The notes: a model not told the origin generated them from the sequence alone. A stretch of 64,000 nucleotides of DNA from an uncultured bacterium (GCA_963720265.1 CAVRET010000002.1:328704-392703); one strand, 5' to 3'. Shown: positions 39,898-64,000, counted from the stretch's first letter. Numbers and translations are program-made.

Positions 39898-40387
39898 AAC
39901 ACCAAAGCGCAAGGAATTTATCCTGCCGGCCGCAGTGTACAGCCCGCAGCTGCTCGAATCGGTAATTTACGACCTGCAGGTCTACGTCGACTGGATTCGC
40001 CAAAACGAAATCCGCGCCAAAGTCGGCACCAAGCTCAAAGAAGAGCCCAATCATTCGGATGAAACCGTGCTTGTCATCGAAGCCTGGCAAAACGGTGAAG
40101 CGCCCACCATCGACTCCGTCCATGCACTGCTCGACCACCTCAAAAACATGCATCTACCCGAGGTGCACATTACCCTGGCCGCCCTCCCCAATTATGCCCA
40201 GCGCAAAACCCTGGTCGACTGGTTTCGAAATAATACCGCGCCCGAGCTGCTCGTATCCTTTGTGGCCGATCGCAACCTCGGCGGCGGCCTAGTGGTGCGC
40301 ACGCCCAACCGCGTCTTCAACTATTCCTGGAGTCAGGAGCTGGTAGCCGGCCGTGATAAGTTGGCGGAGATTGTGCGCCGTGTTTGA
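39887..40387 (+). CDS. atpH: F-type ATP synthase subunit delta (OSCP)
   Basis: C-terminal 'LGGGLVVRTPNRVFNYSWSQEL'; GTG start after RBS AAGGA at 39873. Confidence 0.6.
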   Translation: MAPKTPKRKEFILPAAVYSPQLLESVIYDLQVYVDWIRQNEIRAKVGTKLKEEPNHSDETVLVIEAWQNGEAPTIDSVHALLDHLKNMHLPEVHITLAALPNYAQRKTLVDWFRNNTAPELLVSFVADRNLGGGLVVRTPNRVFNYSWSQELVAGRDKLAEIVRRV

Positions 40388-41930
40388 TAATCCCAAATTT
40401 GCCAAACTCGTGGCCGACGGCCGTCCCACCGGCGAAGTCGTTGGTGTCGACCGCTTCTTGGTGACAGCTGAGGGCCTGGGTGAAGTCGCGGTGAACGCGC
40501 TCATCTATTTTGATAACGGCCATCAGGGACTTGTGCGTGAAGTGCGCGAAAACGTAGTCATGATCCTCAATATGACAGCTGAGAGCATCCCGCTCGGCAC
40601 ACTGGCTGTTATTGAGGCCGAGGAAGTTGTTACCGGCGTGGGTGAGTCGCTGGTGGGTCGCGTGCTATCAGTTACCGGCCAGCCACTCGACGGTAAGGGC
40701 CCGATCACATTCTCGCGCTTCGACCCAGTGTTCAAAGTCGCCCCCGGCATCATTGAACGCAAAGCTCTCGACGAGACACTCACCACTGGTGTCGCCATCG
40801 CCGACCAGCTCTTTCCGCTCGTGAAAGGTCAGCGCATCGCTGTGCTTGGTGACAACAAAGTTGGGAAGTCGGCTTTCACCATGCAGCTCACCCTCGCGCA
40901 AAAGGGCACCGGTCGTGTCGTTATTCACGTTCTCATTTCCAAGCGCAAAGCCGACGTCGACCGCCTCATCGCCAAGCTCAATGAAACCGGCGCCATGGAA
41001 TACTGCGTTGTCGTGGTCGCCTCAGTCTTCGATTCGCTCACCCAAAGCTACCTCGCGCCCTACATTGGCGCCACCATCGCCGAGTACCTCTGGACCAACG
41101 GCAAAGATTGCGTCATTGTTTATGACGATCTGTCCAACCACGCCAAGGTTTACCGCGAACTATCGCTCTTACTCAAAGTCGCCCCCGGCCGGGCCAGCTT
41201 CCCAGGCGACATGTTCTACGCCCACTCGTCTCTGCTCGAGCGGGCCGGTCGTCTCAACTCAAACGGCGCGACCCTGGCCGCCATTCCGGTTATCCTCACC
41301 CCCAACAACGACATCACAGCCCCTTTGCCCACGGCCATCATGTCCATCACCGACGGCCAGCTCATCTTCGATTCCGAGGCCTTCCGCGCCGGCATTCGGC
41401 CGGCCGTGTCCGTCGGCCTGTCGGTCTCTCGCGTGGGTGGTGTCGGCCAAGATAAGCGCCAGAAGAAACTCACTGCCGACTTGTTCAAAAAACTTGCCAG
41501 CTATCGCCAAGCAGCCGAATTTTCGCACTTCGGTTCCGAGCTCGCCATCGAATCTCGCGCCGACCTTGAATTGGGCAAGAAGATTTACGAAGCCTTGAAG
41601 CAGCCGCCGGACACCATCTATACCGCCAACGAGCAAGATCTCATCCTGGGCGTTGTTATGAAAACTGAGGGCAAAATTACCATTAATATTGATAGCCTGA
41701 AGCGCAAGGCCAAAGAGATCGCACCGTCCATGAAGCCGGATTCCGACTGGGAGGGCATGGTCACCAAGCTGTTGGCCGAAGTGACGGTACAGGCGCCGAC
41801 TGCTCCTGCTCCAGCCCCTGGTGCCAACCCACCCGGTGCCGGCGCGTCTCCGGGCCCAACCCAAACCCAGGGCGGCCTACCGGCTGCTCAGCCCTCGGCC
41901 CCCGCCCCCGCAGCCGAGGCTAAAAAGTGA
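40380..41930 (+). CDS. atpA: F1 ATP synthase subunit alpha
   Basis: 'VGRVLSVTGQPLDGKGPI','GQRIAVLGDNKVGKSAF' P-loop, 'ITDGQLIFDSEAFRAGIRPAVSVGLSVSRVG'. Confidence 0.85.
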   Translation: MFDNPKFAKLVADGRPTGEVVGVDRFLVTAEGLGEVAVNALIYFDNGHQGLVREVRENVVMILNMTAESIPLGTLAVIEAEEVVTGVGESLVGRVLSVTGQPLDGKGPITFSRFDPVFKVAPGIIERKALDETLTTGVAIADQLFPLVKGQRIAVLGDNKVGKSAFTMQLTLAQKGTGRVVIHVLISKRKADVDRLIAKLNETGAMEYCVVVVASVFDSLTQSYLAPYIGATIAEYLWTNGKDCVIVYDDLSNHAKVYRELSLLLKVAPGRASFPGDMFYAHSSLLERAGRLNSNGATLAAIPVILTPNNDITAPLPTAIMSITDGQLIFDSEAFRAGIRPAVSVGLSVSRVGGVGQDKRQKKLTADLFKKLASYRQAAEFSHFGSELAIESRADLELGKKIYEALKQPPDTIYTANEQDLILGVVMKTEGKITINIDSLKRKAKEIAPSMKPDSDWEGMVTKLLAEVTVQAPTAPAPAPGANPPGAGASPGPTQTQGGLPAAQPSAPAPAAEAKK

Positions 41931-42787
41931 GTTCCCAAGCCTTAGGCATTGAAAAAGAGGCCAGTCAGGTTGGCACCGTCCATGAACTAACCGGCATTTT
42001 CGAATCCATTGCCTCCATGCGCATTGGCAAAATTAAAGACCGCGTCAATCGCAGCCAACTGTTTTTCGTTGAGCTTTGGCAGATTTATACGCAGCTGCGC
42101 GTCGACCCGACCGAACGCCTAATCGGGAAAAACGGTCCCAAACGCGACAAAGACAATGCCTTCCTGGTGCTCACGTCCGAAGGCGGCTTATCCGGCGACA
42201 TCGACCAGCGCATTGTCCAAACTGTTATACAAAGTTTCGACCCCAAAACCACCGACCTCATTGTCATCGGCGCCCACGGTGCCACGCAATTCGTCCAAAA
42301 CCATGTCAAGATTAAGCGCTACTTTCGTCTGCCTGACATCGATCAGGCCATCGACGTCTCGCCCATTATCGATGAGCTCCTTGGCTACAAGAAGCCCACC
42401 GTGTGGTTTCAACGCTACGTTTCACTCTCCGTCCAAGAAGTCGGCCACCTCGACCTCATCGGCCGCGTACAAGCGCTTGGCACCAATGCCGCCGGCGCCG
42501 GCCAGGGTGAGATCATTTCTCCGCGCGAGTACCTCTTTGAGCCGAGTGTCGATGACGTCGTGCGCTACCTCGAATCCGTCATGATGGAAATCGCGCTCTC
42601 GCAGGTCATCATGGAGTCGCGCCTTGCCCAATACGCCTCGCGTTTCACCGCCATGAGCTCGGCCAAAAAGCGCGCCAAAGAGCTCCAAACCCTCCTCCTT
42701 ATGAACTACAACCGTGCCAAGCGCGGGGAGGCCGACGACCGCATCAAGGAAATCGTCAATGCCATGAATGCACTCGGCGTGGGGTAG
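41927..42787 (+). CDS. atpG: F1 ATP synthase subunit gamma
   Basis: C-terminal 'ASRFTAMSSAKKRAKELQTLLLMNYNRAKR...EIVNAMNAL' gamma signature. Confidence 0.75.
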   Translation: MSSQALGIEKEASQVGTVHELTGIFESIASMRIGKIKDRVNRSQLFFVELWQIYTQLRVDPTERLIGKNGPKRDKDNAFLVLTSEGGLSGDIDQRIVQTVIQSFDPKTTDLIVIGAHGATQFVQNHVKIKRYFRLPDIDQAIDVSPIIDELLGYKKPTVWFQRYVSLSVQEVGHLDLIGRVQALGTNAAGAGQGEIISPREYLFEPSVDDVVRYLESVMMEIALSQVIMESRLAQYASRFTAMSSAKKRAKELQTLLLMNYNRAKRGEADDRIKEIVNAMNALGVG

Positions 42788-42803
42788 CTCTAAAATAATT
42801 CCG

Positions 42804-43337
42804 CTAATTCCGTGATTGGGGACGAAGGGCAAGCCGCACCTTCGCCCCCAATCGGATTAACACATCGGTCGCGGGTTCATCAGTTTCGGTATCACCAGCC
42901 GCGCGACGCAGAAATTCAGTTGCGTGCGCGATGCTGCGCAGGCCCCTCCACAGCCCCCGGTCGGCCCGCACATATTCCTTCCGAAAACCCTCAAGGATCC
43001 AGGCTGGTAGGTCGATGAAGATGCCGCGAGCCCTCATTACTTGGGCGAGGCTGGAGAGCTCGCTGTTGATCCGGTCGACCGCGCTCTGGTCTTGCTTCAC
43101 TAGATTGGCGAGCCGTTGCCAGATCTCGTCTCGCTGTCCGATCCCCCAGTCAACGAACATAACCACGAGCACAGCGGCCCGCAACCTAACGCCGTCGTCC
43201 GGAGGGTTATCGAAGATACGCTTCAACTCCTTCAAGATAAACGTCAGCCCGTCCTGATCGCTCAATATCTCTTGAGCGCGTTCGGAGACACCCCGGGTCT
43301 CAATGTTCGGTTCCGGCACAAACCCTCCACATGTCAA
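42804..43337 (-). CDS. Orphan hypothetical protein encoded antisense inside the atp operon (R-x6-H HEPN-like motif 'RGLRSIAH'); TTG start
   Basis: 177-aa ORF with ordinary composition on opposite strand between atpG and atpD. Confidence 0.35.
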   Translation of the reverse strand: MTCGGFVPEPNIETRGVSERAQEILSDQDGLTFILKELKRIFDNPPDDGVRLRAAVLVVMFVDWGIGQRDEIWQRLANLVKQDQSAVDRINSELSSLAQVMRARGIFIDLPAWILEGFRKEYVRADRGLWRGLRSIAHATEFLRRAAGDTETDEPATDVLIRLGAKVRLALRPQSRN

Positions 43338-43366
43338 TCGGCGCCTGCCGAGCCGCTAGATATAAC

Positions 43367-43389
43367 GTCTGTTATATCAGATAACAGAC
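43367..43389. promoter_or_regulatory. Perfect 9-5-9 palindrome GTCTGTTAT-ATCAG-ATAACAGAC 30 bp upstream of the antisense ORF start
   Basis: Read directly from sequence. Confidence 0.4.
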
Positions 43390-43673
43390 TGTCACGGCAA
43401 CGACGCCCGCCAGTTACATTCTTCCGGCCGTACCGCTCGCCCACAGTGCAGGCATGGTCGGCGCGGTAACTTCCTGCGAGCAGATGGCCGAAACCGAGGC
43501 CACGGAGGCAGCCATGTTCCGTCGGTTGCCCTGAGGTAGACTCCGCTGTACCAACCCCGGCCCTGGCGCTTGACGCGCCTGGCCGGATCTGCCCCGAGTT
43601 TTGAATCTTGCTTTCTCGAATCTCAAGGTAGGCCCAAACGCTTTATCGTGTAGAATATAAACATTAGCGCTAA

Positions 43674-45140
<1,467 letters not shown>

Positions 45141-56409: not shown

Positions 56410-56528
56410 GTGGACGTAGAATAGGTATTATAACACAAAATATCAAAAAACACAATGGATACCTCATCAAATGAAAACCCGTCCTTTCTAACCGGGTTTC
56501 CGAGTAGTAGAGACGGGTTGTTGCGGCG

Positions 56529-57263
56529 CTAGTTTGCGGCGATGGCCTGCAGCCAGCGCAGGGCCACGTTCGCCAAGCTGGCCCGGGCGTCGTCGAGGTA
56601 CCTGCGGGCGGTTCTCTCACCGACGAACAGGATCGCCGTCAGGTCGCTGAGCTGTCGCACCGGCTGGTCCTCGCCCAGTGCGAACCGCAACTGTACCGCC
56701 TGAAGCCGGTTCGAACTGAGGTGGGCCAGGCCCAGGAGAGCATTCAGGTGGGCAAGGTCGGGTGCGAGCGCCCGCACGAGCTGGCGCCTATCGGTGTTCT
56801 GGTCGTCCCAGCCCTTCAGCGCCCACTGGAACAGTGCGAGCACATTGTCGTCCCGGTAAACATCGCCGGCCAGCGGCGGCGTCCGCGGTGCAAGGTCGTG
56901 GGCCAGATCAACGAATGTTTGCGTACAGGAAAACTCCCCGCGCACGCGCACAAGAAATCCGCGCTGAACCAGACTGCTCAGGCTGGCGGCCGGCAGATCA
57001 CTGCTCCGGCCGATATGCTGGATCACGTAACTGGCCAGCTCGGACACCGTAAACGGCGCCCAGCCGGTAGCCCGAAACTGCATGAGCGCGATAATCCAGG
57101 CCGCGGCCCGACCCTCGCCGTGTTCGCCGAAGAAAACGTCGAACAGGCGGCCGACATTCGGCCCTTCGATGTTAAGTGAACCCGGCTGTATCAGGTAATC
57201 CCGGGCCACGGCAATCGGCACGACACCCTGATCGTTCAAGACCCCTCCTCGGGTAGATCGCAA
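56529..57263 (-). CDS. Hypothetical protein
   Basis: ORF with ordinary composition; hairpin AACCCGTC...GACGGGTT just downstream of stop. Confidence 0.3.
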   Translation of the reverse strand: MRSTRGGVLNDQGVVPIAVARDYLIQPGSLNIEGPNVGRLFDVFFGEHGEGRAAAWIIALMQFRATGWAPFTVSELASYVIQHIGRSSDLPAASLSSLVQRGFLVRVRGEFSCTQTFVDLAHDLAPRTPPLAGDVYRDDNVLALFQWALKGWDDQNTDRRQLVRALAPDLAHLNALLGLAHLSSNRLQAVQLRFALGEDQPVRQLSDLTAILFVGERTARRYLDDARASLANVALRWLQAIAAN

Positions 57264-57336
57264 GTATCAATACAGGATTATTGAAACATTAACACAAAAA
57301 TACAAAAAAGCAATCCAAACCATAGGCGAGTGTACC

Positions 57337-57654
57337 GTGATGCCACGTAGACGTGCTATAATGGCGTGGTTAAGGAAAAGGTTAATGGCCAGACAAACTT
57401 TTAAGTCTCTTGAACCTGAGATCAGGTCAGCGATAGACGCGATAATAATAAAGCCTGATTTTCCTAGAGACCCCAAAGGCTACACCCTCATAGAGGGATT
57501 TGTGCATCAATTTGTTCAGGACGCTACAGGTTCTGGAGTGCCGATAGCACTAGCGGGTCAAGTAATGCCAGTCGTTTCCATCATAGGAAATTCAACGGGC
57601 CGAGTTTTCTACTTCAATGTTAAGTTTTTACTTCCGAAAGTGAAATTCGAGTAA
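57337..57654 (+). CDS. Hypothetical small protein in AT-rich islet
   Basis: GC drop to ~40%; ORF abuts next gene (ATG overlaps stop). Confidence 0.25.
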   Translation: MMPRRRAIMAWLRKRLMARQTFKSLEPEIRSAIDAIIIKPDFPRDPKGYTLIEGFVHQFVQDATGSGVPIALAGQVMPVVSIIGNSTGRVFYFNVKFLLPKVKFE

Positions 57655-58079
57655 TGGCCGAGAATCAACGCATTACAAAAACCAGCAAACTAGATAAGGG
57701 CGGTAAGCAGCTTGATCAGGATCTGGTAAACGAGCTACTCGCCAAAGTTTCAAGGCTGGACAATGTAAAAGAAGAGTTTTTGGGAATATTCGGCCTTTTC
57801 GCTGCATTGTTGATCTTCACCTCAGTTGAAGTAAAAGTGTTTCAAGATGTTACTCGTTTTTCTCTAATTGTCGGCATCAGTTCATTTTTCGTTGCTACGC
57901 TTATGCTTTTCGTACTAACGCTTAATAACGTTATACATAGGAGAGCATGGAGCGATTTCTGGTCAGCGGCATCGGTTTTATCTGTTATATTCTTGGTTAT
58001 CTCGGGGGAAGCCTTTTGGTGGGCCACACACTTTGGCCACATTCTGTTACTGATATGGAACGTCAAAATCGTTAGCTGA
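57654..58079 (+). CDS. Hypothetical 3-TM membrane protein in AT-rich islet
   Basis: Translationally coupled to 57337..57654. Confidence 0.3.
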   Translation: MAENQRITKTSKLDKGGKQLDQDLVNELLAKVSRLDNVKEEFLGIFGLFAALLIFTSVEVKVFQDVTRFSLIVGISSFFVATLMLFVLTLNNVIHRRAWSDFWSAASVLSVIFLVISGEAFWWATHFGHILLLIWNVKIVS

Positions 58080-58089
58080 CATGAGCGTA

Positions 58090-59014
58090 TACTCTACCTA
58101 TGACCGACGAACCTAAACACCCATTCAAGAAATTTATTGAATTGGCCTCGAAGCCGCTTCCATCAGAAGAGGAAGCACGGCGGCGTGACGATGGTTATAC
58201 CGATACTCAAACTCGTTTACGTAAAGCTGAAGATACTTCGGGCTCACAGCGTGATACGTCCCGTCCAGACTCCGCTTCATCTGACTCCAAAACCCCTCAA
58301 TAGTGTTGGTTGTAACTGAGTCACGGCCATACTCGTGTTTGCTGTGGTTAATGGCCTCGTGTACGCGCTTGCGTGACACGTGCTTGTAAATCGGGCTTTC
58401 GTCGGTATGCAACTCGGCCTCCGGCGCAACGTTGCCCTCAATAAACCGTTCAGCCGCGACGCGCCCCACCTGCTTAGTGACCTGGGCCTCAACGCGACCG
58501 CCGCGCTCGACTGCACCCATGACGGCGGTTTTCTTAACCCAACGCCAATCTTGGCCACGGCGCTTGCCGCCCACGTACGTTTCGTCCATCTCGACAATGC
58601 CGGTTAAATTTACGTTGTGCTCGTCCATCATCTTGCGGATTTGTTTGGCGATACGCCACGCCGTCTTGTAAGTCACGTTAAGGTGCCGTTCAAGTTCCTT
58701 GGCCGCTACACCGTTCTTGCTGTTACTGAATAGGTAGATAGCGAAAAACCACTTCGTAAGCGGCGTGGCTGACTTGTGAAAGATCGTGCCGCTCAACGGG
58801 TACAGCTCAAAGGCACAGTGAGCGCACTTGTAATATTTGCGTGTCTTAATCCGGTAGAACTTGCCCTTGGTGCCGCACGAGGGGCAATACTCTAAATGAC
58901 CGTAGCGGTTTTGAAAGATGTATTCGAGGCAAACATCATCATTCGGGAACTCGGTTTTGAGCATATCGTAGGTGTATAACGGCGTTTTCATACATCTATT
59001 CTACTCCACCTATA
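58090..59014. mobile_element. IS1595-family insertion sequence (approximate bounds)
   Basis: Transposase gene flanked by imperfect 12-bp direct repeat TACTC(T/C)ACCTAT at 58090-58101 and 59003-59014; terminal IRs not resolved. Confidence 0.55.
58134..58991 (-). CDS. IS1595-family (ISXO2-like) DDE transposase with N-terminal zinc ribbon
   Basis: 'CPSCGTKGKFYRIKTRKYYKCAHC', 'VEMDETYVGGK', 'NTIEGFWSQMKRSL' hallmark motifs. Confidence 0.85.
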   Translation of the reverse strand: MKTPLYTYDMLKTEFPNDDVCLEYIFQNRYGHLEYCPSCGTKGKFYRIKTRKYYKCAHCAFELYPLSGTIFHKSATPLTKWFFAIYLFSNSKNGVAAKELERHLNVTYKTAWRIAKQIRKMMDEHNVNLTGIVEMDETYVGGKRRGQDWRWVKKTAVMGAVERGGRVEAQVTKQVGRVAAERFIEGNVAPEAELHTDESPIYKHVSRKRVHEAINHSKHEYGRDSVTTNTIEGFWSQMKRSLDGTYHAVSPKYLQLYVNEFEYRYNHRHAAVLPLLMEAASRPIQ

Positions 59015-59644
59015 CGTGGTGTCAAGGGATACTCACCAAACCATAAACCCAAAAGCAGCAGGCCCCACCGAGAATTGGCAGGGCCCCGCTGGGTCGCGGC
59101 TGCCGCCCTCAATGGGGCTAACTCGTGCGAACTGCGCGCCGAGCAATCAGAAATCGAACTGGCCCGTAACATTGGTCCAGGCTGTTATCGGCTCCGGCTT
59201 TGCCCTCGGTGCGCAGTGCCTGTCCGAGTGATCTACATTTACATAGCTGCGTGGTTTGACGAGCGCCAGCTGGTCAAAAACCTCTCCGAGCTGGTCGGTA
59301 AAGGCGGTGTTTTGGAACATGCGCTCTGCCTTACGCAGACCGGTGTGGGGGTTGGCAACCACCATGCGGGCATTGCCACTGGCGCTCTGGAAAGCTCTAA
59401 GTCCGTATGCCTGCAGGCCAAACGACAGCTGCGTCCGCCAACGGCTCGGCACACTGGGCATTAATTGCTTTTGTATACGAGTACGGATACCCCGTACAAT
59501 ATTGGGTGACGACATATTTGTTTTCCTGTTTGTTTTGAAGTGGACAGAAAACAGTGTGTCGTCTTTTTAGTTGCAGCTCAAGCAAGTGTGGGGTGGTTCA
59601 GAGAATAAACCTGTAGTTTTGTTACATTTATATCAATAATGTAA

Positions 59645-59926
59645 ATGAAGATCGGCTCGCCAAGGGCAAAAGCTTATATGGGTTACAGTAAAAAATGTAC
59701 AGGAACAGTTATGAATAATACGAAAAAAATTAACTCCGAAGTAAAATGTGTTTACGTTGTCTGCGTATTAGTTGCTGAGTTTGCAGGATTTGCAATTATT
59801 AGAACAAACGGTAGCCTGATTGTGGCCGGTCTTGTAGGCGGCGGAGCAGCCTTAGTGGCTGCCGTCGTTACCAAGCTTATAGCCAGGGCAAGAGGTATGG
59901 ATTTTTACTCCAAAAGTCACAAGTGA
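59645..59926 (+). CDS. Small membrane protein in AT-rich segment
   Basis: Weak; AT-rich, two hydrophobic stretches. Confidence 0.2.
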   Translation: MKIGSPRAKAYMGYSKKCTGTVMNNTKKINSEVKCVYVVCVLVAEFAGFAIIRTNGSLIVAGLVGGGAALVAAVVTKLIARARGMDFYSKSHK

Positions 59927-60048: not shown

Positions 60049-60124
60049 TGGTAGGCCCGCCTGGATTCGAACCAGGGACCAACACCTTATAAGAGTGTCG
60101 CTCTAACCGCTGAGCTACGGGCCC
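60049..60124 (-). tRNA. tRNA-Ile with anticodon TAT (UAU), CCA encoded
   Basis: Hand-folded cloverleaf: acceptor GGGCCCG/CGGGCCT, anticodon arm ACACT-CTTATAA-GGTGT, T-loop GGTTCGAATCC. Confidence 0.75.
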
Positions 60125-60199
60125 GTGAAAAGCAAAATTGTCGCCCCCGTATATTATACGAGCCCAAGCGCTAACGCGAGCCCTGATATACTTGGGGTA

Positions 60200-60604
60200 A
60201 TGAAGTTCAGCCACTTCTTAAATTTGCCGCGTCCCAAGCTCACCGGCGCCAACCTCTTAAACATCATCGGCGCCGTGGTAGTGATCTATTTGCTCGCGGT
60301 CCTGGGCTCGACCATTAAGCACAACTATTCTCTCGACCAACAAGTTACACAGCTTAATTCCCAGATCGCTCAGCTCCAAAAGCAAAAGGCCGCCTTAAAC
60401 AGCAATATCCAATATGAGCAAACCAGCTCCTTTGACGATCGCGAAGCCCGTTCCCAGCTTGGCCTGCAGGCCCCCGGCGAAAAAGTTATCATCATTCCCG
60501 AATCCTCGCCCACTCCCACGCCGGCTGCCGGCAATACGAACGCGCCTACCCAGCCCAAATCCAACTTTCAGCAGTGGCTGACATTCCTTTCCGGCAAGGC
60601 CTAG
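60200..60604 (+). CDS. FtsB/DivIC-like septum-formation initiator (TM + coiled coil + Pro/Thr tail)
   Basis: 'LLNIIGAVVVIYLLAVL' TM followed by 'LDQQVTQLNSQIAQLQKQKAALNSNIQYEQ'. Confidence 0.5.
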   Translation: MKFSHFLNLPRPKLTGANLLNIIGAVVVIYLLAVLGSTIKHNYSLDQQVTQLNSQIAQLQKQKAALNSNIQYEQTSSFDDREARSQLGLQAPGEKVIIIPESSPTPTPAAGNTNAPTQPKSNFQQWLTFLSGKA

Positions 60605-60659
60605 CGGCGCCATACATTGACGCACACCCTCCAACGTGATACACTTATACCCACAATAG

Positions 60660-60736
60660 CGCGGGGTGGAGCAGTTCGGTAGCTCGCTGGGCTCATAACC
60701 CAGAGGTCGCAGGTTCAAATCCTGCCCCCGCTACCA
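60660..60736 (+). tRNA. Initiator tRNA-Met (CAT)
   Basis: Near-identical to canonical bacterial tRNA-fMet: 5' CGCGGGG with unpaired C1, GGG/CCC anticodon stem, anticodon loop CTCATAA. Confidence 0.85.
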
Positions 60737-60754
60737 AAATAGTAATGCTTAAAA

Positions 60755-60781
60755 TTAGCGACCTCTGGTCGCTAATTTCTG
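60755..60781 (+). terminator. Hairpin TTAGCGACC-TCT-GGTCGCTAA followed by TTTCTG, downstream of tRNA-fMet
   Basis: Read directly. Confidence 0.5.
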
Positions 60782-60813
60782 TAATAAGAGATCTATATTT
60801 TTTACCCGATCCA

Positions 60814-60844
60814 TTGCGCTTAAAACGAGAATATGGTATAAAAT
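60814..60844 (+). promoter_or_regulatory. Candidate promoter TTGCGC-17-TGgTATAAA (extended -10) upstream of helicase
   Basis: Hexamers at 60814-60819 and 60837-60842 with TG at 60834-60835. Confidence 0.3.
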
Positions 60845-60930
60845 CACAGTTTCCAGGTTAGTCACAACCTAATGCCTGGTAACGCGGCTTAACAATTTGC
60901 CGCACAACCCCTGCCGTTTCCCCATTCTCC

Positions 60931-60980
60931 GAGGGATGCCTTAGAGCCAGAAATCGCATTTCTGCTCTGGAACATCCCTC
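60931..60980 (+). promoter_or_regulatory. Nested inverted repeat (GAGGGATG...CATCCCTC enclosing CAGAAAT-CGC-ATTTCTG) in the helicase 5' leader
   Basis: Read directly; 40 bp upstream of ATG 61021. Confidence 0.35.
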
Positions 60981-61020
60981 AGCAGATCGCGGGGGAGCAG
61001 CGACACCCAAGGGGTGCTAC

Positions 61021-63456
61021 ATGCCGGACAACCTGGGCGTCGTTATAGAGCCCTTTCCGTACCAACGGGAGTTCCTCGACGCCATCGAAGTTGCACGCGA
61101 TCGCGGCCAAAAGAATATGCTTGGAGTCATGGCCACCGGCCTCGGCAAGACCGTGGTTGCGGCCTTTGACATTAAGCGGCAGCTTGAGCGTCGTCGTGGA
61201 CGGGTACTCTACCTCTGCCACAACAACTACATTCTGGGGCAGGCCCGCAAGACTTTCGAGGCCATCCTGGGACAGTCGTACACGTACGGCTTCTTCCATG
61301 GCACCGAAAAGCACATGCATCACGTCGATGTACTATTCGCCTCGTTTCAAACGATGGCGATCTGGCGTGAGGCATTCTTGCGTGACGAATTCCGGTACAT
61401 TGTGGTCGACGAGTTCCAACACGCTCACGCCGTCACGTTCAGGCCGACCATCGAGTACTTCGAGCCCGAATCAATGCTGGGGCTTACTGCCACACCAGAG
61501 CGCGGAGACGGCCTCGACATCACGACGCTTCTCGGGCGCCCCGTCTTTGAGCTGGGGCTCTTTAAGGCCCTGGGCCGGCGGTACCTGTGTGACGTCGACT
61601 ACCGGATCATGACCGATGAGCTGCAAAGGCTCGAGGTCCTTGATACACCGGTTGGCAAGCTCAGCATCGCCGAACTCAACCGCACTATCTTCGTCCCTAA
61701 GCGGGATGAAGAGATCGCCCGAATCATCATGGAAAAGACGGCAGAAGTAAACGACCCGCGGGTTATGATCTTCTGCGCGTCAATCGCCCACGCCGAGAAT
61801 ATGGCGGCACTCATGCCGCATGCGGTGGTCATTCACTCCAAGCTGAACGGCAAGGAGAAAGACCGACGGCTCGATGGGTTCCGCCATGGCCAGTACAACA
61901 CGGTCATCACGGTCGACATGCTCAACGAGGGCATCGACGTGCCGGAGGCGAACATTATCGTCTTCCTTCGGTCGACATCCTCGCGAACCATCTTCCTCCA
62001 GCAACTCGGCCGCGGCCTGCGCAAGGCTCTCGGCAAGCTGAAGGTCCTGGTGCTCGACTTCGTCGCCAACTGCGAGCGGTTCGAGATGATCGACCAACTG
62101 CAGCAAGGCGTCAGGAACGAGCGTGAGCGACCGCCCAAGGGGCCGGACGACGGTAATGCTGTCGACAGCAGCCGACCCGAACCGCTAACCATTACGCTCG
62201 ACGGCATCACGTTCGACGAGCGTGCGTGGGAACTGTTCAGGGTTATTGCTGTAGTCCGACAAAGTCATGTGCCGCGCTATACCTACACAAGGGAAGCACT
62301 CGCTGCACAACTCATGGCCAAAGCCAGGGGCGGAGTAATGCCATCATTTGCGGAGGTTAGTTCTGATCCCAAAATGGCATCACCTGACACTTTCATGGAC
62401 ACCTTTGACACCACTTGGAACGGCATCGCCCAAGAACTGGGACTTCGGCCAAACCAGCGCTTCGACTACACAAAGGAGGAGCTTACTGCACAACTCATGG
62501 CCAAAGCCAGGGGCGGAGTAATGCCTACGGGTGCCGAAGTTAATGCTGATCCCGCCATGGCCTCTACTCAGGCTTTCTACAACGTTTTCGGCACCACTTG
62601 GAGTGGCATCGCCGAAGGAGTCGGGCTCAAGCCAAACCTGCGAAGGGACTACACAAAGGAGGAGCTGACCACACAACTTCTGCGTAAATCCAGGGAAGGG
62701 GTAATGCCTTCCCAGCGGGAAGTCGACGCCGATCCGACAATGGCGTCGCAAGGTGCATATGTGTCAGTCTTTGGCACCACCTGGAACGGCATCGCAAAAG
62801 CGGTGGGTCTAAAGCCGACCAGGCGGCATGACTATACTAGGGAAGAGCTTACCGCTCAGCTCCGACGGAAGGCTAGGGATGGTGCAATGCCCGCACGCTC
62901 CGCCGTTGATGAGGACCTGGAAATGGCACCGGCCCAAGCTTTTCTGACTGTCTTCAGCACCACCTGGAACGGCATCGCCAAGGAACTAGGACTCAAGGTG
63001 ACGCAACGACGCGATTACACAAAAGCGGAGCTCACCACACAACTCCTTGCCAAAGCACGAAACGGGATAATGCCTACGGTCGCTGAGGTTAATGCCGACC
63101 CCACTATGGCGCGGTTTGAGACCTTCGTGAAAGCTTTCGGCAGCGACTGGGATGGCATAGCCCGCGAACTTGGTCTCAAGCGGGGCGGCCGCAGGACTGG
63201 GACGATGGCATCAGCGCCTCGCGCGCAAGAAGCCGATCCCAAGATAGCGACATTCCCATCGGACGAAGATGAGTATTCCGATGGGGAGCTCTTCGCCTAC
63301 CTCAGGGAGCTCACCATCCGGCTTGTGATGATACCAACGGAAGGAGACATCAACAAGGCTGCTCGTCGCAAAAACGGCATTGACCTTGTAGTTTTTATCC
63401 GGCGGTTCGGATCGCTGTCAGAGGCGCTCGCACGTGCTGGGGTTAGCCGCGGCTGA
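61021..63456 (+). CDS. SF2 DEAD/DEAH-box (ResIII/COG1061-type) helicase fused to 5 tandem 61-aa homing-endonuclease-associated (HNH_repeat-like) repeats plus a divergent terminal copy
   Basis: Motif I 'MATGLGKT', II 'VVDEFQHAH', III 'LGLTATPER', VI 'QQLGRGLRK'; repeats 'DYTKEELTAQL..KAR.GVMP...EV.ADP.MAS...F..VFGTTWNGIA.ELGLKP'; last copy 'FIRRFGSLSEALARAGV'. Confidence 0.8.
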   Translation: MPDNLGVVIEPFPYQREFLDAIEVARDRGQKNMLGVMATGLGKTVVAAFDIKRQLERRRGRVLYLCHNNYILGQARKTFEAILGQSYTYGFFHGTEKHMHHVDVLFASFQTMAIWREAFLRDEFRYIVVDEFQHAHAVTFRPTIEYFEPESMLGLTATPERGDGLDITTLLGRPVFELGLFKALGRRYLCDVDYRIMTDELQRLEVLDTPVGKLSIAELNRTIFVPKRDEEIARIIMEKTAEVNDPRVMIFCASIAHAENMAALMPHAVVIHSKLNGKEKDRRLDGFRHGQYNTVITVDMLNEGIDVPEANIIVFLRSTSSRTIFLQQLGRGLRKALGKLKVLVLDFVANCERFEMIDQLQQGVRNERERPPKGPDDGNAVDSSRPEPLTITLDGITFDERAWELFRVIAVVRQSHVPRYTYTREALAAQLMAKARGGVMPSFAEVSSDPKMASPDTFMDTFDTTWNGIAQELGLRPNQRFDYTKEELTAQLMAKARGGVMPTGAEVNADPAMASTQAFYNVFGTTWSGIAEGVGLKPNLRRDYTKEELTTQLLRKSREGVMPSQREVDADPTMASQGAYVSVFGTTWNGIAKAVGLKPTRRHDYTREELTAQLRRKARDGAMPARSAVDEDLEMAPAQAFLTVFSTTWNGIAKELGLKVTQRRDYTKAELTTQLLAKARNGIMPTVAEVNADPTMARFETFVKAFGSDWDGIARELGLKRGGRRTGTMASAPRAQEADPKIATFPSDEDEYSDGELFAYLRELTIRLVMIPTEGDINKAARRKNGIDLVVFIRRFGSLSEALARAGVSRG
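62272..63186 (+). repeat. Five tandem 183-bp in-frame coding repeats (HNH-associated repeat-like) within helicase gene; sixth degenerate copy 63277..63453
   Basis: Nucleotide-level identity visible, e.g. 'gcacaactcatggccaaagccaggggcggagtaatgcc' at 62300 and 62490. Confidence 0.8.
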
Positions 63457-63586
63457 GTACAGCCTGCAACAAGTACACCCGGGGCCGAGAAGACACAATC
63501 TTCTCGGCCCCCCTCTTTTGCCCTAGTCAATGAGTTAGTGAGACATGTCGATCTTACAGATAAAATTGCCACCAGCCACGTACGAC

Positions 63587-63985
63587 TTACATATTCGATT
63601 TTGCACCTGGTAAGATGCGACCATCCGAACCGCGCCGTTGAATGCCACCATTACAGCCAGGATTGCGGATAACAACACCGTCCTTAATGAGCAATCTTCG
63701 CACTGTTAGACGATCGATATGATACTTAGTCGCCAGTTTACGCAGAGAAAGGCCATTCTGATAATCATCTTTCAGATCGTCGACATTGATTGCCTGTAAC
63801 GCCGAAGAGCGTAAGGGTCTAACAGCAATTTCGTGTGCTTTATATGCAGGTTGATTTTTCAACTCACTCAGCGCAGCATATAAAAGCTTGATGATTGGGC
63901 CGCTCTGATGTCGCCCACCCAGCGCTACCAAGGAATTATTTCCAAAATCAACGGCCGCAGCCGTTTTTTTATTTAGTAAAAGCAT
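63587..63985 (-). CDS. Small HTH-containing protein in AT-rich (foreign-looking) segment
   Basis: 'GLSLRKLATKYHIDRLTVRRLL' helix-turn-helix-like; sharp GC drop after 63460; codon usage unlike the rest of the window. Confidence 0.3.
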   Translation of the reverse strand: MLLLNKKTAAAVDFGNNSLVALGGRHQSGPIIKLLYAALSELKNQPAYKAHEIAVRPLRSSALQAINVDDLKDDYQNGLSLRKLATKYHIDRLTVRRLLIKDGVVIRNPGCNGGIQRRGSDGRILPGAKSNM

Positions 63986-64000
63986 AAGTGTGTTGACTTT

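What the first reader, a model, noticed from the sequence alone, without database searches (positions are those of the whole stretch)
60049..64000. tRNA-flanked island carrying a helicase fused to homing-endonuclease-associated repeats
Directly downstream of initiator tRNA-Met sits an 811-aa SF2 helicase with motifs I, II (DEFQH), III and VI. Its C-terminal third consists of five near-identical 61-aa repeats plus a sixth divergent copy ('FIRRFGSLSEALARAGV'). These resemble the short DNA-binding repeat usually found next to HNH homing endonucleases. A helicase motor joined to an array of such modules is not a standard housekeeping architecture. It is preceded by a long structured leader and followed by an abrupt GC drop with an HTH gene. 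This context suggests a horizontally acquired single-gene defence or mobile-element-associated factor. No methylase or nuclease partner is visible in the window.
Basis: partly seen in the sequence, partly recalled or inferred. Interest (0 to 1): 0.72.

Follow-up and report, generated by a model that had tools for sequence, protein, structure and literature searches.

The report
Nuclease-free restriction-type helicase with swappable repeat array
A Saccharimonadia (candidate-phyla-radiation) genome carries a self-contained helicase gene whose motor is related to that of a known restriction enzyme but which has no DNA-cutting domain, has an exchangeable array of six small DNA-binding-like modules, has a conserved structured mRNA leader, and tends, like its relatives, to sit just after tRNA genes; nobody has tested what it does.

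Summary
An intact 811-aa SF2 DExH helicase (61021-63456, +) lies 284 bp downstream of an initiator-type tRNA-Met, and its C-terminal half holds five 61-aa repeats plus a sixth divergent unit that match Pfam HNH_repeat. The five repeats are only 48-66% identical, not near-identical.

What it is:
- The motor belongs to the SauUSI (type IV restriction enzyme) clade, but the PLD nuclease and the SRA reader domain are both absent.
- The repeat unit appears to be that clade's own four-helix coupler module, amplified here.
- Between close homologues the motor (85%), last unit (73%) and 5' leader (83% nt) are conserved, while the five-unit block is only 26% identical, so the array behaves as an exchangeable module.
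- The roughly 170-nt leader hides the ribosome-binding site, shows covariation in three lineages, and has no Rfam match.
- 7 of 20 family genes have a co-oriented tRNA within 450 bp upstream, against 5 of 240 neighbouring ORFs.
- Neighbourhoods vary and no partner gene is conserved. The gene's composition is native, and I found no integrase or att repeat.

Verdict: an uncharacterised, widespread (mostly CPR) accessory cassette. It is most likely an array-anchored dsDNA translocase involved in conflicts with mobile DNA. A defence role is unproven. I rate it a new variant of a known kind.

The parts
60660..60736 (+). Initiator-type tRNA-Met(CAT), directly upstream and co-oriented with the helicase gene
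   Evidence: ARAGORN; Rfam tRNA 65.2 bits; C1xU72 mismatch and three G:C pairs in the anticodon stem read from the sequence
60753..60777 (+). Hairpin followed by a T-rich run: probable terminator of the tRNA gene, separating it from the helicase unit
   Evidence: Sequence AATTAGCGACC-TCT-GGTCGCTAATT followed by TCTG. The same tRNA, terminator, promoter layout is seen in L006, L007, L014 and L174
60814..60844 (+). Sigma-70-like promoter: -35 TTGCGC, 17-nt spacer, extended -10 TGgTATAAAAT
   Evidence: Read from the sequence. The -10 block is conserved in L254 and L001. Homology with L254 begins about here; identity upstream of it is only 42%
60850..61020 (+). Conserved structured 5' leader of about 170 nt: long hairpin (arms 60931-60954 and 60958-60980) and an outer helix pairing an anti-SD (60908-60915) with the SD-like AAGGGGTG (61009-61016)
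   Evidence: Fold z -4.5. 83% nt identity to L254 over the last ~100 nt, against 62% in the CDS and 45% at third codon positions. Homologous leader in L001. 14 compensatory pairs against 6.0+-1.8 in shuffles and 2-3 in slid controls. No Rfam match
61021..62082 (+). SF2 DExH ATPase/translocase motor (aa 1-354) with all motifs intact and no N-terminal nuclease
   Evidence: Pfam ResIII and Helicase_C. SauUSI 7CLG residues 219-568, E 6e-45. Foldseek 1e-20. RadD second best. AF2 pLDDT above 90
62083..62277 (+). Linker (aa 355-419): helix, a disordered acidic stretch, a beta-strand and a helix
   Evidence: AF2 secondary structure with lower pLDDT; net charge -3; 63% identical to P0004
62278..63192 (+). 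Five tandem 61-aa four-helix units (u1-u5, aa 420-724), HNH_repeat-like: the hypervariable, exchangeable block
   Evidence: TRF and the repeat finder period 183 nt. 48-66% identical to each other. Only 26% identical to the P0004 array although the motor is 85% identical. AF2 pLDDT about 90, four helices per unit
63193..63267 (+). Disordered spacer (aa 725-749)
   Evidence: AF2 pLDDT below 50
63268..63453 (+). Sixth, divergent terminal unit (aa 750-811): the best Pfam HNH_repeat match and positionally conserved
   Evidence: PF18780 26.6 bits. 73-75% identical to the last unit of P0004 but 18-29% identical to u1-u5
63481..63511 (+). Strong intrinsic-terminator-like hairpin (13-bp stem) ending the helicase unit, facing the convergent downstream ORF
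   Evidence: Terminator scan
63587..63985 (-). Neighbour, probably not part of the system: low-GC 132-aa ORF with weak HTH similarity
   Evidence: GC3 0.39. HTH_58 and Cbp1 hits below cut-off. No tblastn match next to any other family member

Best explanation
The gene encodes an ATP-driven double-stranded-DNA translocase of the SauUSI/RadD/HsdR type that has neither a nuclease nor a modified-base reader. In their place it has a flexible array of six small four-helix, HTH-like modules.

Proposed mechanism (inferred): the array binds DNA multivalently and acts as the target-recognition or anchoring part. The motor then hydrolyses ATP to track along the duplex from that anchor, pulling loops, stripping bound proteins or stalling replication of the bound DNA. 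Any cutting would need a nuclease encoded elsewhere.

The unit of the array is the motor clade's own 'coupler' module, multiplied. The five-unit block is exchanged or homogenised independently of the motor, as specificity modules in genetic-conflict systems are.

The gene is a self-contained cassette: own promoter, a conserved leader that hides the ribosome-binding site (tight translational control), the CDS and a terminator. In Saccharimonadia and other CPR genomes this cassette turns up at different places, preferentially just downstream of tRNA genes. It is therefore an accessory, horizontally shuffled factor, most likely acting on foreign or mobile DNA, rather than a core repair helicase.

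Shown: architecture, clade membership of the motor, absence of nuclease and reader, mosaic conservation, leader conservation and covariation, tRNA adjacency, variable context. Inferred: DNA binding by the array, translocation, and the biological role.
For: - Motor: SauUSI 7CLG E 6e-45 over chain residues 219-568; Foldseek 1e-20; PADLOC mREase_IV 1.9e-54, motor part only; all ATPase motifs invariant. SauUSI was shown to translocate on dsDNA (PMC7913695).
- Nuclease and reader absent: the motor starts at about aa 6, with no PLDc, Mrr_cat or DUF3427 hit, whereas clade relatives carry them.
- Exchangeable array: against P0004 the motor is 85%, u6 73% and u1-u5 26% identical; the window's array type is shared with homologues whose motors are more distant. 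Repeat number is 1-7. Sister proteins carry INT_rpt or DUF4379 tails instead.
- Cassette and mobility: every context differs, and some are mobile-element or phage-like loci. A co-oriented tRNA lies upstream in 7 of 20 family genes against 5 of 240 controls, p = 3e-6.
- Leader.
- Trans-nuclease precedent: a stand-alone PLDc_2 gene next to the L247 homologue, and the CglI/NgoAVII H subunits (PMC7913695).
Against: - No experiment exists on any family member, and no paper on the family was found.
- The window protein's own units are near-neutral (net charge -1 to +3), which is weaker support for DNA binding than the family average.
- The gene's composition is fully native, and several homologues sit among housekeeping genes, which also fits a lineage-specific housekeeping role.
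- No nuclease, methylase or integrase partner is present, and single-gene defence systems with no nuclease effector are unusual.
- The leader evidence rests on three lineages, and the structure was derived from those same sequences.
- The sample for tRNA adjacency is small (20 loci) and was not chosen at random.
Confidence: 0.5

Rival explanations
1. Lineage-specific housekeeping DNA repair or recombination helicase of CPR bacteria, a functional analogue of RadD or XPB. The repeat array would tether it to DNA or to partner proteins at stalled forks or lesions.
For: RadD is the second-best sequence and structure match (5e-26; Foldseek 2e-18). GC, GC3 and codon usage are native. Several homologues sit among housekeeping genes: rpoBC-rpsL, dnaG-rpoD, infB-rbfA, xseAB. 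The family is widespread in small CPR genomes. No defence partner is present. One homologue has the same context in many samples.
Against: NCBIfam RadD scores 102 bits against a cut-off of 720, and XPB 45 against 610. No synteny exists between any two lineages examined. The array is 26% identical where the motor is 85% identical, which is unlike a conserved repair factor. Repeat number ranges from 1 to 7. Two tandem paralogues occur on a phage-like contig, and one copy lies inside a relaxase/recombinase element. The family is enriched next to tRNA genes.
Confidence: 0.25
2. A gene of a phage or integrative element (replication, recombination or anti-defence helicase). The window copy would be what remains of an element that integrated at the tRNA-fMet gene.
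For: L087 is a phage-like contig with an integrase, a small terminase, two methylases and two tandem copies of this architecture. L002 has Replic_Relax, RadC, an IS1595 transposase and a serine recombinase. The window has an IS1595 transposase and low-GC ORFs on both sides. tRNA adjacency is enriched. The motor matches phrog_16 'DNA helicase' at 4e-63.
Against: The helicase gene's composition is native, unlike its low-GC neighbours. No integrase is visible and no repeat of the tRNA 3' end is found in five tRNA-adjacent loci. The array has no tblastn match in 50,697 phage records. Most contexts are ordinary chromosomal genes.
Confidence: 0.15
3. The motor/recognition subunit of a split restriction-like system whose nuclease is encoded elsewhere in the genome, analogous to the H subunit of CglI/NgoAVII or to a SauUSI divided into two genes.
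For: L247 has a 161-aa stand-alone PLDc_2 gene placed divergently next to the helicase, with two XRE-type HTH genes. The clade's default architecture fuses a PLD or Mrr nuclease to this motor. Precedent is described in PMC7913695.
Against: A PLD neighbour was found in only 1 of about 20 family loci. tblastn with that PLD protein finds nothing in the 64-kb window or in any other locus. No nuclease domain lies within 3 kb upstream. The downstream region is mostly outside the window.
Confidence: 0.1

Closest known systems
SauUSI (Staphylococcus aureus type IV modification-dependent restriction enzyme, PDB 7CLG)
   Same: Same SF2 DExH motor clade (E 6e-45 over the whole motor). A four-helix module sits at the same distance after motif VI, corresponding to the coupler subdomain at residues 618-669. 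Both are single polypeptides. The motor type has been shown to translocate on dsDNA.
   Different: No PLD nuclease (SauUSI residues 1-191) and no SRA/DUF3427 reader for 5mC/5hmC (806-953). The coupler-like unit is multiplied to six copies. It therefore cannot be a restriction endonuclease on its own.
RadD (E. coli YejH, PDB 6JDE/7R7J), an accessory recombination/repair helicase
   Same: Nuclease-free SF2 motor of related sequence and fold (5e-26; Foldseek 2e-18), with a C-terminal accessory region.
   Different: Scores far below the RadD family cut-off (102 against 720 bits). No match to anything in RadD beyond its motor (the RadD match stops at about residue 360 of the chain). The repeat array is absent from RadD.
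HNH_repeat (Pfam PF18780) proteins: arrays of 'homing endonuclease associated repeats'
   Same: The array matches the family model (61.5 bits). It has the same roughly 55-60-aa unit with the consensus LGRxPT...FGSWxxAL..AGL.
   Different: No HNH or LAGLIDADG nuclease is attached. The window's u1-u5 are a divergent subtype (KARGGVMP...FGTTWNGIA) that mostly falls below the per-unit cut-off.
CglI/NgoAVII-type ATP-dependent restriction systems (H subunit = SF2 ATPase, R subunit = PLD nuclease + B3 reader)
   Same: A nuclease-free SF2 ATPase polypeptide that would need a separately encoded PLD nuclease. One homologue (L247) has such a neighbour.
   Different: No R-like gene is present in the window. 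No sequence comparison with the H subunits was made here.
Type I restriction HsdR / FtsK-type 'anchor and translocate' motors
   Same: Works like them only by analogy: a dsDNA translocase directed by a separate DNA-recognition part. HsdR models hit the motor (EcoAI R 1.7e-31).
   Different: No methyltransferase or specificity subunits and no nuclease. Recognition would be built into the same chain as a repeat array.

Membership tests
SauUSI-type type IV restriction enzyme | SF2 DExH ATPase of the SauUSI clade | tested here: met
   phmmer against 7CLG 6e-45, query 7-358 to chain 219-568; PADLOC mREase_IV 1.9e-54; Foldseek top hit
SauUSI-type type IV restriction enzyme | N-terminal PLD-family nuclease (HxK motif) | tested here: not met
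   Motor motif I is at aa 40 with no N-terminal extension. No PLDc hit, whereas relatives show PLDc_2. No PLD homologue in the window by tblastn
SauUSI-type type IV restriction enzyme | C-terminal SRA/DUF3427 modified-cytosine reader | tested here: not met
   No PF11907 hit. The C-terminus is the repeat array. Relatives show DUF3427
SauUSI-type type IV restriction enzyme | Helical coupler domain following the ATPase | tested here: inconclusive
SauUSI-type type IV restriction enzyme | ATP-dependent cleavage of modified DNA | not testable with these tools
   Needs biochemistry
HNH_repeat (PF18780) repeat family | Match to the family model above the gathering score | tested here: met
   Whole protein 61.5 bits against 26; unit 6 alone 26.6; unit 3 at 23.5
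HNH_repeat (PF18780) repeat family | Association with an HNH homing endonuclease domain (as the family's name implies) | tested here: not met
   No HNH hit. Only 7 of 79 sampled carriers have one, so the name overstates the link
RadD (NF053632) | Score above the equivalog cut-off | tested here: not met
   102.3 bits against a cut-off of 720
tRNA-associated genomic island / integrated element | Lies next to a tRNA gene | tested here: met
   tRNA-fMet 284 bp upstream; family-wide enrichment of 7/20 against 5/240
tRNA-associated genomic island / integrated element | Direct repeat of the tRNA 3' end at the far boundary (attR) | tested here: not met
   None in the window or in L006, L007, L014 and L174 within the DNA held. 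The window ends 544 bp after the gene, so a distant attR cannot be excluded here
tRNA-associated genomic island / integrated element | Integrase or recombinase gene | tested here: inconclusive
   None between the tRNA and the window end. An IS1595 transposase lies 1.7 kb upstream of the tRNA. The source contig beyond the window could not be fetched
tRNA-associated genomic island / integrated element | Composition that deviates from the host's | tested here: not met
   Helicase GC 0.578, GC3 0.677, KL 0.137 against window means of 0.571 and 0.666. Only the flanking small ORFs deviate
Known cis-regulatory RNA families (Rfam 15) | Covariance-model match of the leader | tested here: not met
   No match at gathering score, and none at E <= 1 other than the tRNA and one chance sRNA hit
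Known anti-phage defence systems (PADLOC-DB 2.0) | Full-length match to a defence protein model | tested here: not met
   The best models match only the motor (profile positions 214-569 of 945). The neighbours have no hit. The system-level PADLOC/DefenseFinder logic was not run

The most novel reading that the evidence does not exclude
The promoter, the SD-sequestering leader RNA and the helicase gene together form a previously undescribed, nuclease-free, single-gene DNA-surveillance cassette of CPR bacteria. It retargets itself by swapping arrays of small DNA-binding repeats (HNH_repeat, INT_rpt, DUF4379). It repeatedly lands immediately downstream of tRNA genes by a mechanism that leaves no att scar. 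It is controlled by a new class of cis-regulatory RNA.
Probability: 0.2. Interest if true: 0.8.

Novelty: new variant of a known kind. Interest (0 to 1): 0.62.

Why it matters
CPR/Patescibacteria have tiny genomes and depend on host cells and on imported DNA, yet little is known about how they handle foreign DNA. This family is abundant in them, is annotated only as 'DEAD/DEAH box helicase', and is untested.

If the proposed mechanism holds, it would show how a restriction-enzyme motor can be repurposed into a translocase-only factor by losing its nuclease and multiplying its coupler module into a recognition array. It would also give a function to a very large repeat family: 13,358 representative clusters, most with no attached enzyme among those sampled.

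The conserved leader is a candidate new regulatory RNA, and reporter assays could test it directly. The tRNA-proximal placement could reveal a gene-insertion route in CPR genomes.

Tried and rejected
- Fetching the source contig beyond the window failed. The exact protein is not indexed for contexts, so the region downstream of 64000 stayed unseen.
I used those as controls instead.
- The attR search (repeats of the tRNA 3' end) was negative in five loci.
- A search for a PLD nuclease partner in the window and in all loci was negative except at L247 itself.
- Rfam was negative for the leader. The covariance model R1 found only the window, L254/L255 and a weak L001 hit among 36 loci.
- The repeat array has no tblastn match in 50,697 phage records. 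BFVD fold hits were all weaker than E 1e-3.
- The repeat profile against PDB sequences gave nothing significant, with the best E at 0.26.
- The weak NCBIfam hit of a unit to the Brig1 glycosylase model led nowhere. The Brig1 paper does not describe that region.
- The AFDB50 fold library was unavailable.
- The downstream HTH ORF, the low-GC ORFs and FtsL do not recur next to other family members, so I rejected them as partners.
- The long leader is not a general family feature; the four other tRNA-adjacent loci inspected have short leaders. A T-box or other known riboswitch is excluded at E <= 1.
- The RNAalifold consensus from two sequences disagreed with the single-sequence folds. Only the three-sequence consensus recovered the long hairpin.

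Full report

The ORF 61021-63456 (+) encodes 811 aa. ARAGORN and Rfam place tRNA-Met(CAT) at 60660-60736 (+), 284 bp upstream. Its C1xU72 mismatch and three G:C pairs next to the anticodon loop (sequence) mark it as an initiator tRNA. The finding's start coordinate, 60049, is a different gene: tRNA-Ile(UAU) on the minus strand. An ftsL/divIC-like gene lies between the two tRNAs.

Pfam gives ResIII (5e-29), Helicase_C (2e-15) and HNH_repeat PF18780 (9.4e-17; 61.5 bits against a cut-off of 26). Motifs I, II (DEFQH), III, V and VI are present and invariant in 77 homologues.

Five units of exactly 61 aa (183 nt) span aa 420-724, and a sixth unit spans aa 750-811. Taken singly, only unit 6 reaches the Pfam cut-off (26.6 bits); unit 3 scores 23.5.

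The leader folds far better than shuffled sequence (z = -4.5). The gene ends at a 13-bp-stem terminator at 63481-63511. The convergent downstream ORF is low-GC (GC3 0.39 against 0.68) and has only sub-threshold HTH hits.

**2. Organism and breadth of the family**

AtpD from the window is 81-93% identical to proteins named Candidatus Saccharimonadia, and the source contig is 1.1 Mb. This is a TM7/Patescibacteria genome.

The helicase has 4,630 relatives at E <= 1e-5 among the candidates scored. Nearly all of the best 120 share ResIII + Helicase_C + HNH_repeat, and the named ones are Saccharimonadales, Parcubacteria, Colwellbacteria and Omnitrophica. My unit HMM detects 1-7 repeats in 107 of those 120. 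Some motor relatives carry INT_rpt (PF14882) or DUF4379 zinc-ribbon tails instead. No paper describing the family was found.

**3. The motor**

The closest solved relative is SauUSI, the S. aureus type IV restriction enzyme (7CLG). The match is E 6e-45, with query residues 7-358 aligned to chain residues 219-568, and SauUSI is also the Foldseek top hit. RadD is second. The PADLOC mREase_IV models match the motor part only.

Per PMC7913695, SauUSI consists of a PLD nuclease (1-191), the ATPase, a helical coupler (618-805) and an SRA reader (806-953), and it translocates on dsDNA. Relatives of this motor in other phyla carry PLDc_2 + DUF3427 or Mrr_cat. The window protein has neither a nuclease nor a reader: its motor begins at about residue 6. 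It therefore fails two defining features of a type IV restriction enzyme while sharing the engine.

**4. The repeat**

An HMM built from 374 family units finds one unit 78-96 residues after motif VI in every architecture of the clade, including PLD + motor + DUF3427 proteins. In SauUSI, motif VI is at Q537 (alignment), and 537 + 81 = 618, which is the published start of the coupler's 'four short helices' subdomain.

I also ran a profile-profile comparison between the post-motor region of 105 nuclease-bearing relatives in which the HMM saw nothing and the unit profile. It aligns the whole unit at E 7.5e-5.

The repeat family is very large: 13,358 representative clusters at E <= 1e-3. Of 79 sampled carriers, only 7 have an HNH domain and 4-5 are helicases; most are repeat-only. 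Members cross-hit Sigma70_r3, LexA_DNA_bind and HTH_38. Family units are basic (median pI 9.2), although the window's own units are near-neutral. Nucleic-acid binding is therefore plausible but untested.

**5. Mosaic evolution**

The homologue with the closest motor is P0004, also 811 aa. Against it, identity is 85% in the motor, 63% in the linker, 73% in unit 6 and only 26% in the u1-u5 block.

The window's u1-u5 resemble each other (48-66%) more than any P0004 unit (16-36%). They resemble the units of P0002, P0003 and P0005 (37-64%), with no position-by-position correspondence, and those three proteins have more distant motors (74-77%) and lack unit 6.

Motor and array therefore have different histories. 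The block has been exchanged or homogenised as a module. That is how specificity domains in genetic-conflict systems behave, and it is not expected of a conserved repair factor.

**6. The leader**

The P0004 locus (L254/L255) shares the -10 box and the leader with the window. The last ~100 nt before the ATG are 83% identical, against 62% for the CDS, 45% at third codon positions, and 42% upstream of the -35. Both leaders fold into the same long hairpin (z -4.5 and -4.3). L001 (P0003) has a more divergent version that ends on its start codon.

On a MAFFT alignment of the three, RNAalifold recovers the hairpin plus an outer helix that pairs the SD-like GGGG(T)G with an upstream C-rich stretch. 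Fourteen pairs keep pairing through changes on both sides, against 6.0 +- 1.8 in shuffles (0 of 500) and 2-3 in slid controls. Paired cells are 87% against about 42%.

Two caveats apply: there are only three lineages, and the structure was derived from the same sequences. There is no Rfam match. This is a candidate translational control element. It is not a general family feature, because the four other tRNA-adjacent loci inspected have short leaders.

**7. Context and the 'island' idea**

The neighbourhoods of the homologues all differ. I found the gene:
- among genes of unknown function (L001);
- inside a relaxase/RadC/IS1595/recombinase element (L002);
- inserted, with MazE and an MFS gene, between rpoC and rpsL (L003);
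- upstream of a sigma-factor gene and parAB (L005), after dnaG-rpoD (L006), before infB-rbfA (L248) and near xseAB (L249);
- next to a weak SMODS-domain hit (L253);
- once next to a stand-alone PLD gene (L247).

A phage-like contig (L087) carries two tandem copies beside an integrase, a SocA gene, two methylases and a small terminase.

A co-oriented tRNA gene lies within 450 bp upstream, with nothing in between, in 7 of 20 family genes. The tRNAs involved are fMet, Asn, Ala, Cys+Leu, Phe+Gly, Asn and Tyr. The same is true for only 5 of 240 other ORFs in the same loci (Fisher p = 3e-6), and none of about 190 nuclease-bearing relatives is immediately preceded by one. In the five such loci I inspected in detail, a tRNA terminator and a separate sigma-70-like promoter intervene, and no repeat of the tRNA 3' end is found downstream.

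Against an island, the helicase gene's GC, GC3 and codon usage are those of the host (0.578, 0.677 and KL 0.137, against means of 0.571 and 0.666). The small ORFs on either side, and the IS1595 patch upstream, do look foreign.

I conclude that the gene is an accessory, relocating cassette with a preference for tRNA-proximal sites. A classical integrase-borne island is not demonstrated.

**8. Most likely mechanism**

I favour (confidence about 0.5) a nuclease-free dsDNA translocase whose multi-HTH array anchors it to, or recognises, DNA. The motor would then track along the duplex, extruding loops, displacing proteins or blocking replication. The factor would act on foreign or mobile DNA, possibly together with an unlinked nuclease.

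Rivals:
- a lineage-specific repair helicase (0.25);
- a phage or mobile-element gene left behind at the tRNA (0.15);
- the motor subunit of a split restriction system (0.1).

The report sections list the evidence for and against each rival, and the results that would refute it.

**9. Novelty and score**

Sequences of this family are already in public databases, and the motor belongs to a known clade. The following features have not been described in any paper I found:
- loss of both nuclease and reader;
- amplification of the coupler module into a swappable array;
- the conserved leader;
- the tRNA-proximal habit.

I rate it a new variant of a known kind, with interest 0.62.

Noticed in passing
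window 60049-60124 (-); also L250 11945-12017: A tRNA-Ile with a UAU anticodon. To my knowledge most bacteria instead read AUA with a lysidine-modified CAU tRNA. The same kind of tRNA occurs in another family locus.
   Followed up: no
window 57654-59926: A patch of foreign-looking DNA upstream of the tRNAs. It holds an IS1595-family transposase (58134-58991, -; DDE_Tnp_IS1595 2.7e-37) flanked by two low-GC small ORFs (57654-58079, GC3 0.46; 59645-59926, GC3 0.38). Related transposases sit near family helicases in L002 and L077.
   Followed up: partly
window 56431-57309: 20-nt direct repeats (56431-56450 and 57290-57309, 85% identical) bracket an unusually GC-rich ORF with no Pfam match (56529-57263, -; GC 0.646, GC3 0.776). 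This may be a small insertion.
   Followed up: no
L087 4294-9263 (IMGVR_UViG_3300014161_000012): A phage-like contig carrying two tandem paralogues of the helicase + HNH_repeat architecture (862 and 794 aa, six Pfam repeat stretches each). They lie between an integrase/SocA-Panacea pair and C5 and ParB-N6/N4 DNA methylases and a small terminase.
   Followed up: partly
L247 5212-5697 (-) and 4713-5210: A stand-alone 161-aa PLDc_2 protein is encoded divergently next to a family helicase (P0015), preceded by two XRE-type HTH genes. This looks like a split nuclease/motor arrangement.
   Followed up: partly
L003/L004 5985-10145: In one Patescibacteria-like genome the helicase, a MazE antitoxin gene and an MFS transporter gene are wedged between rpoC and rpsL-rpsG-fusA, genes that to my knowledge are usually contiguous in bacteria.
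   Followed up: no
window 62734-62877 (aa 572-619 of the helicase): NCBIfam gives a weak hit (E 6e-6, far below the cut-off) from one repeat unit to positions 170-217 of the anti-phage DNA glycosylase Brig1 model. This hints that Brig1 may end in a related module. The Brig1 paper does not discuss that region.
   Followed up: partly
P0068, P0075, P0083 (homologues); 10 of 79 repeat carriers: LAGLIDADG_3 (PF14528) hits occur in proteins that are no longer than the other homologues. The hits probably fall on the repeats themselves rather than on inteins, which suggests the repeat unit resembles the LAGLIDADG-associated helical module.
   Followed up: no
window 40353-45140: The F0F1 ATP synthase alpha and beta subunits score below NCBIfam's equivalog cut-offs (392.7 against 484; 456.8 against 463). 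Five of ten large ORFs tested have no NCBIfam match at all, which fits the divergence expected of a CPR genome.
   Followed up: no
window 60125-60604 (+): The listed ftsL/divIC-like ORF starts at a GTG that directly abuts the minus-strand tRNA-Ile. The real start is more likely the ATG at about 60201.
   Followed up: no
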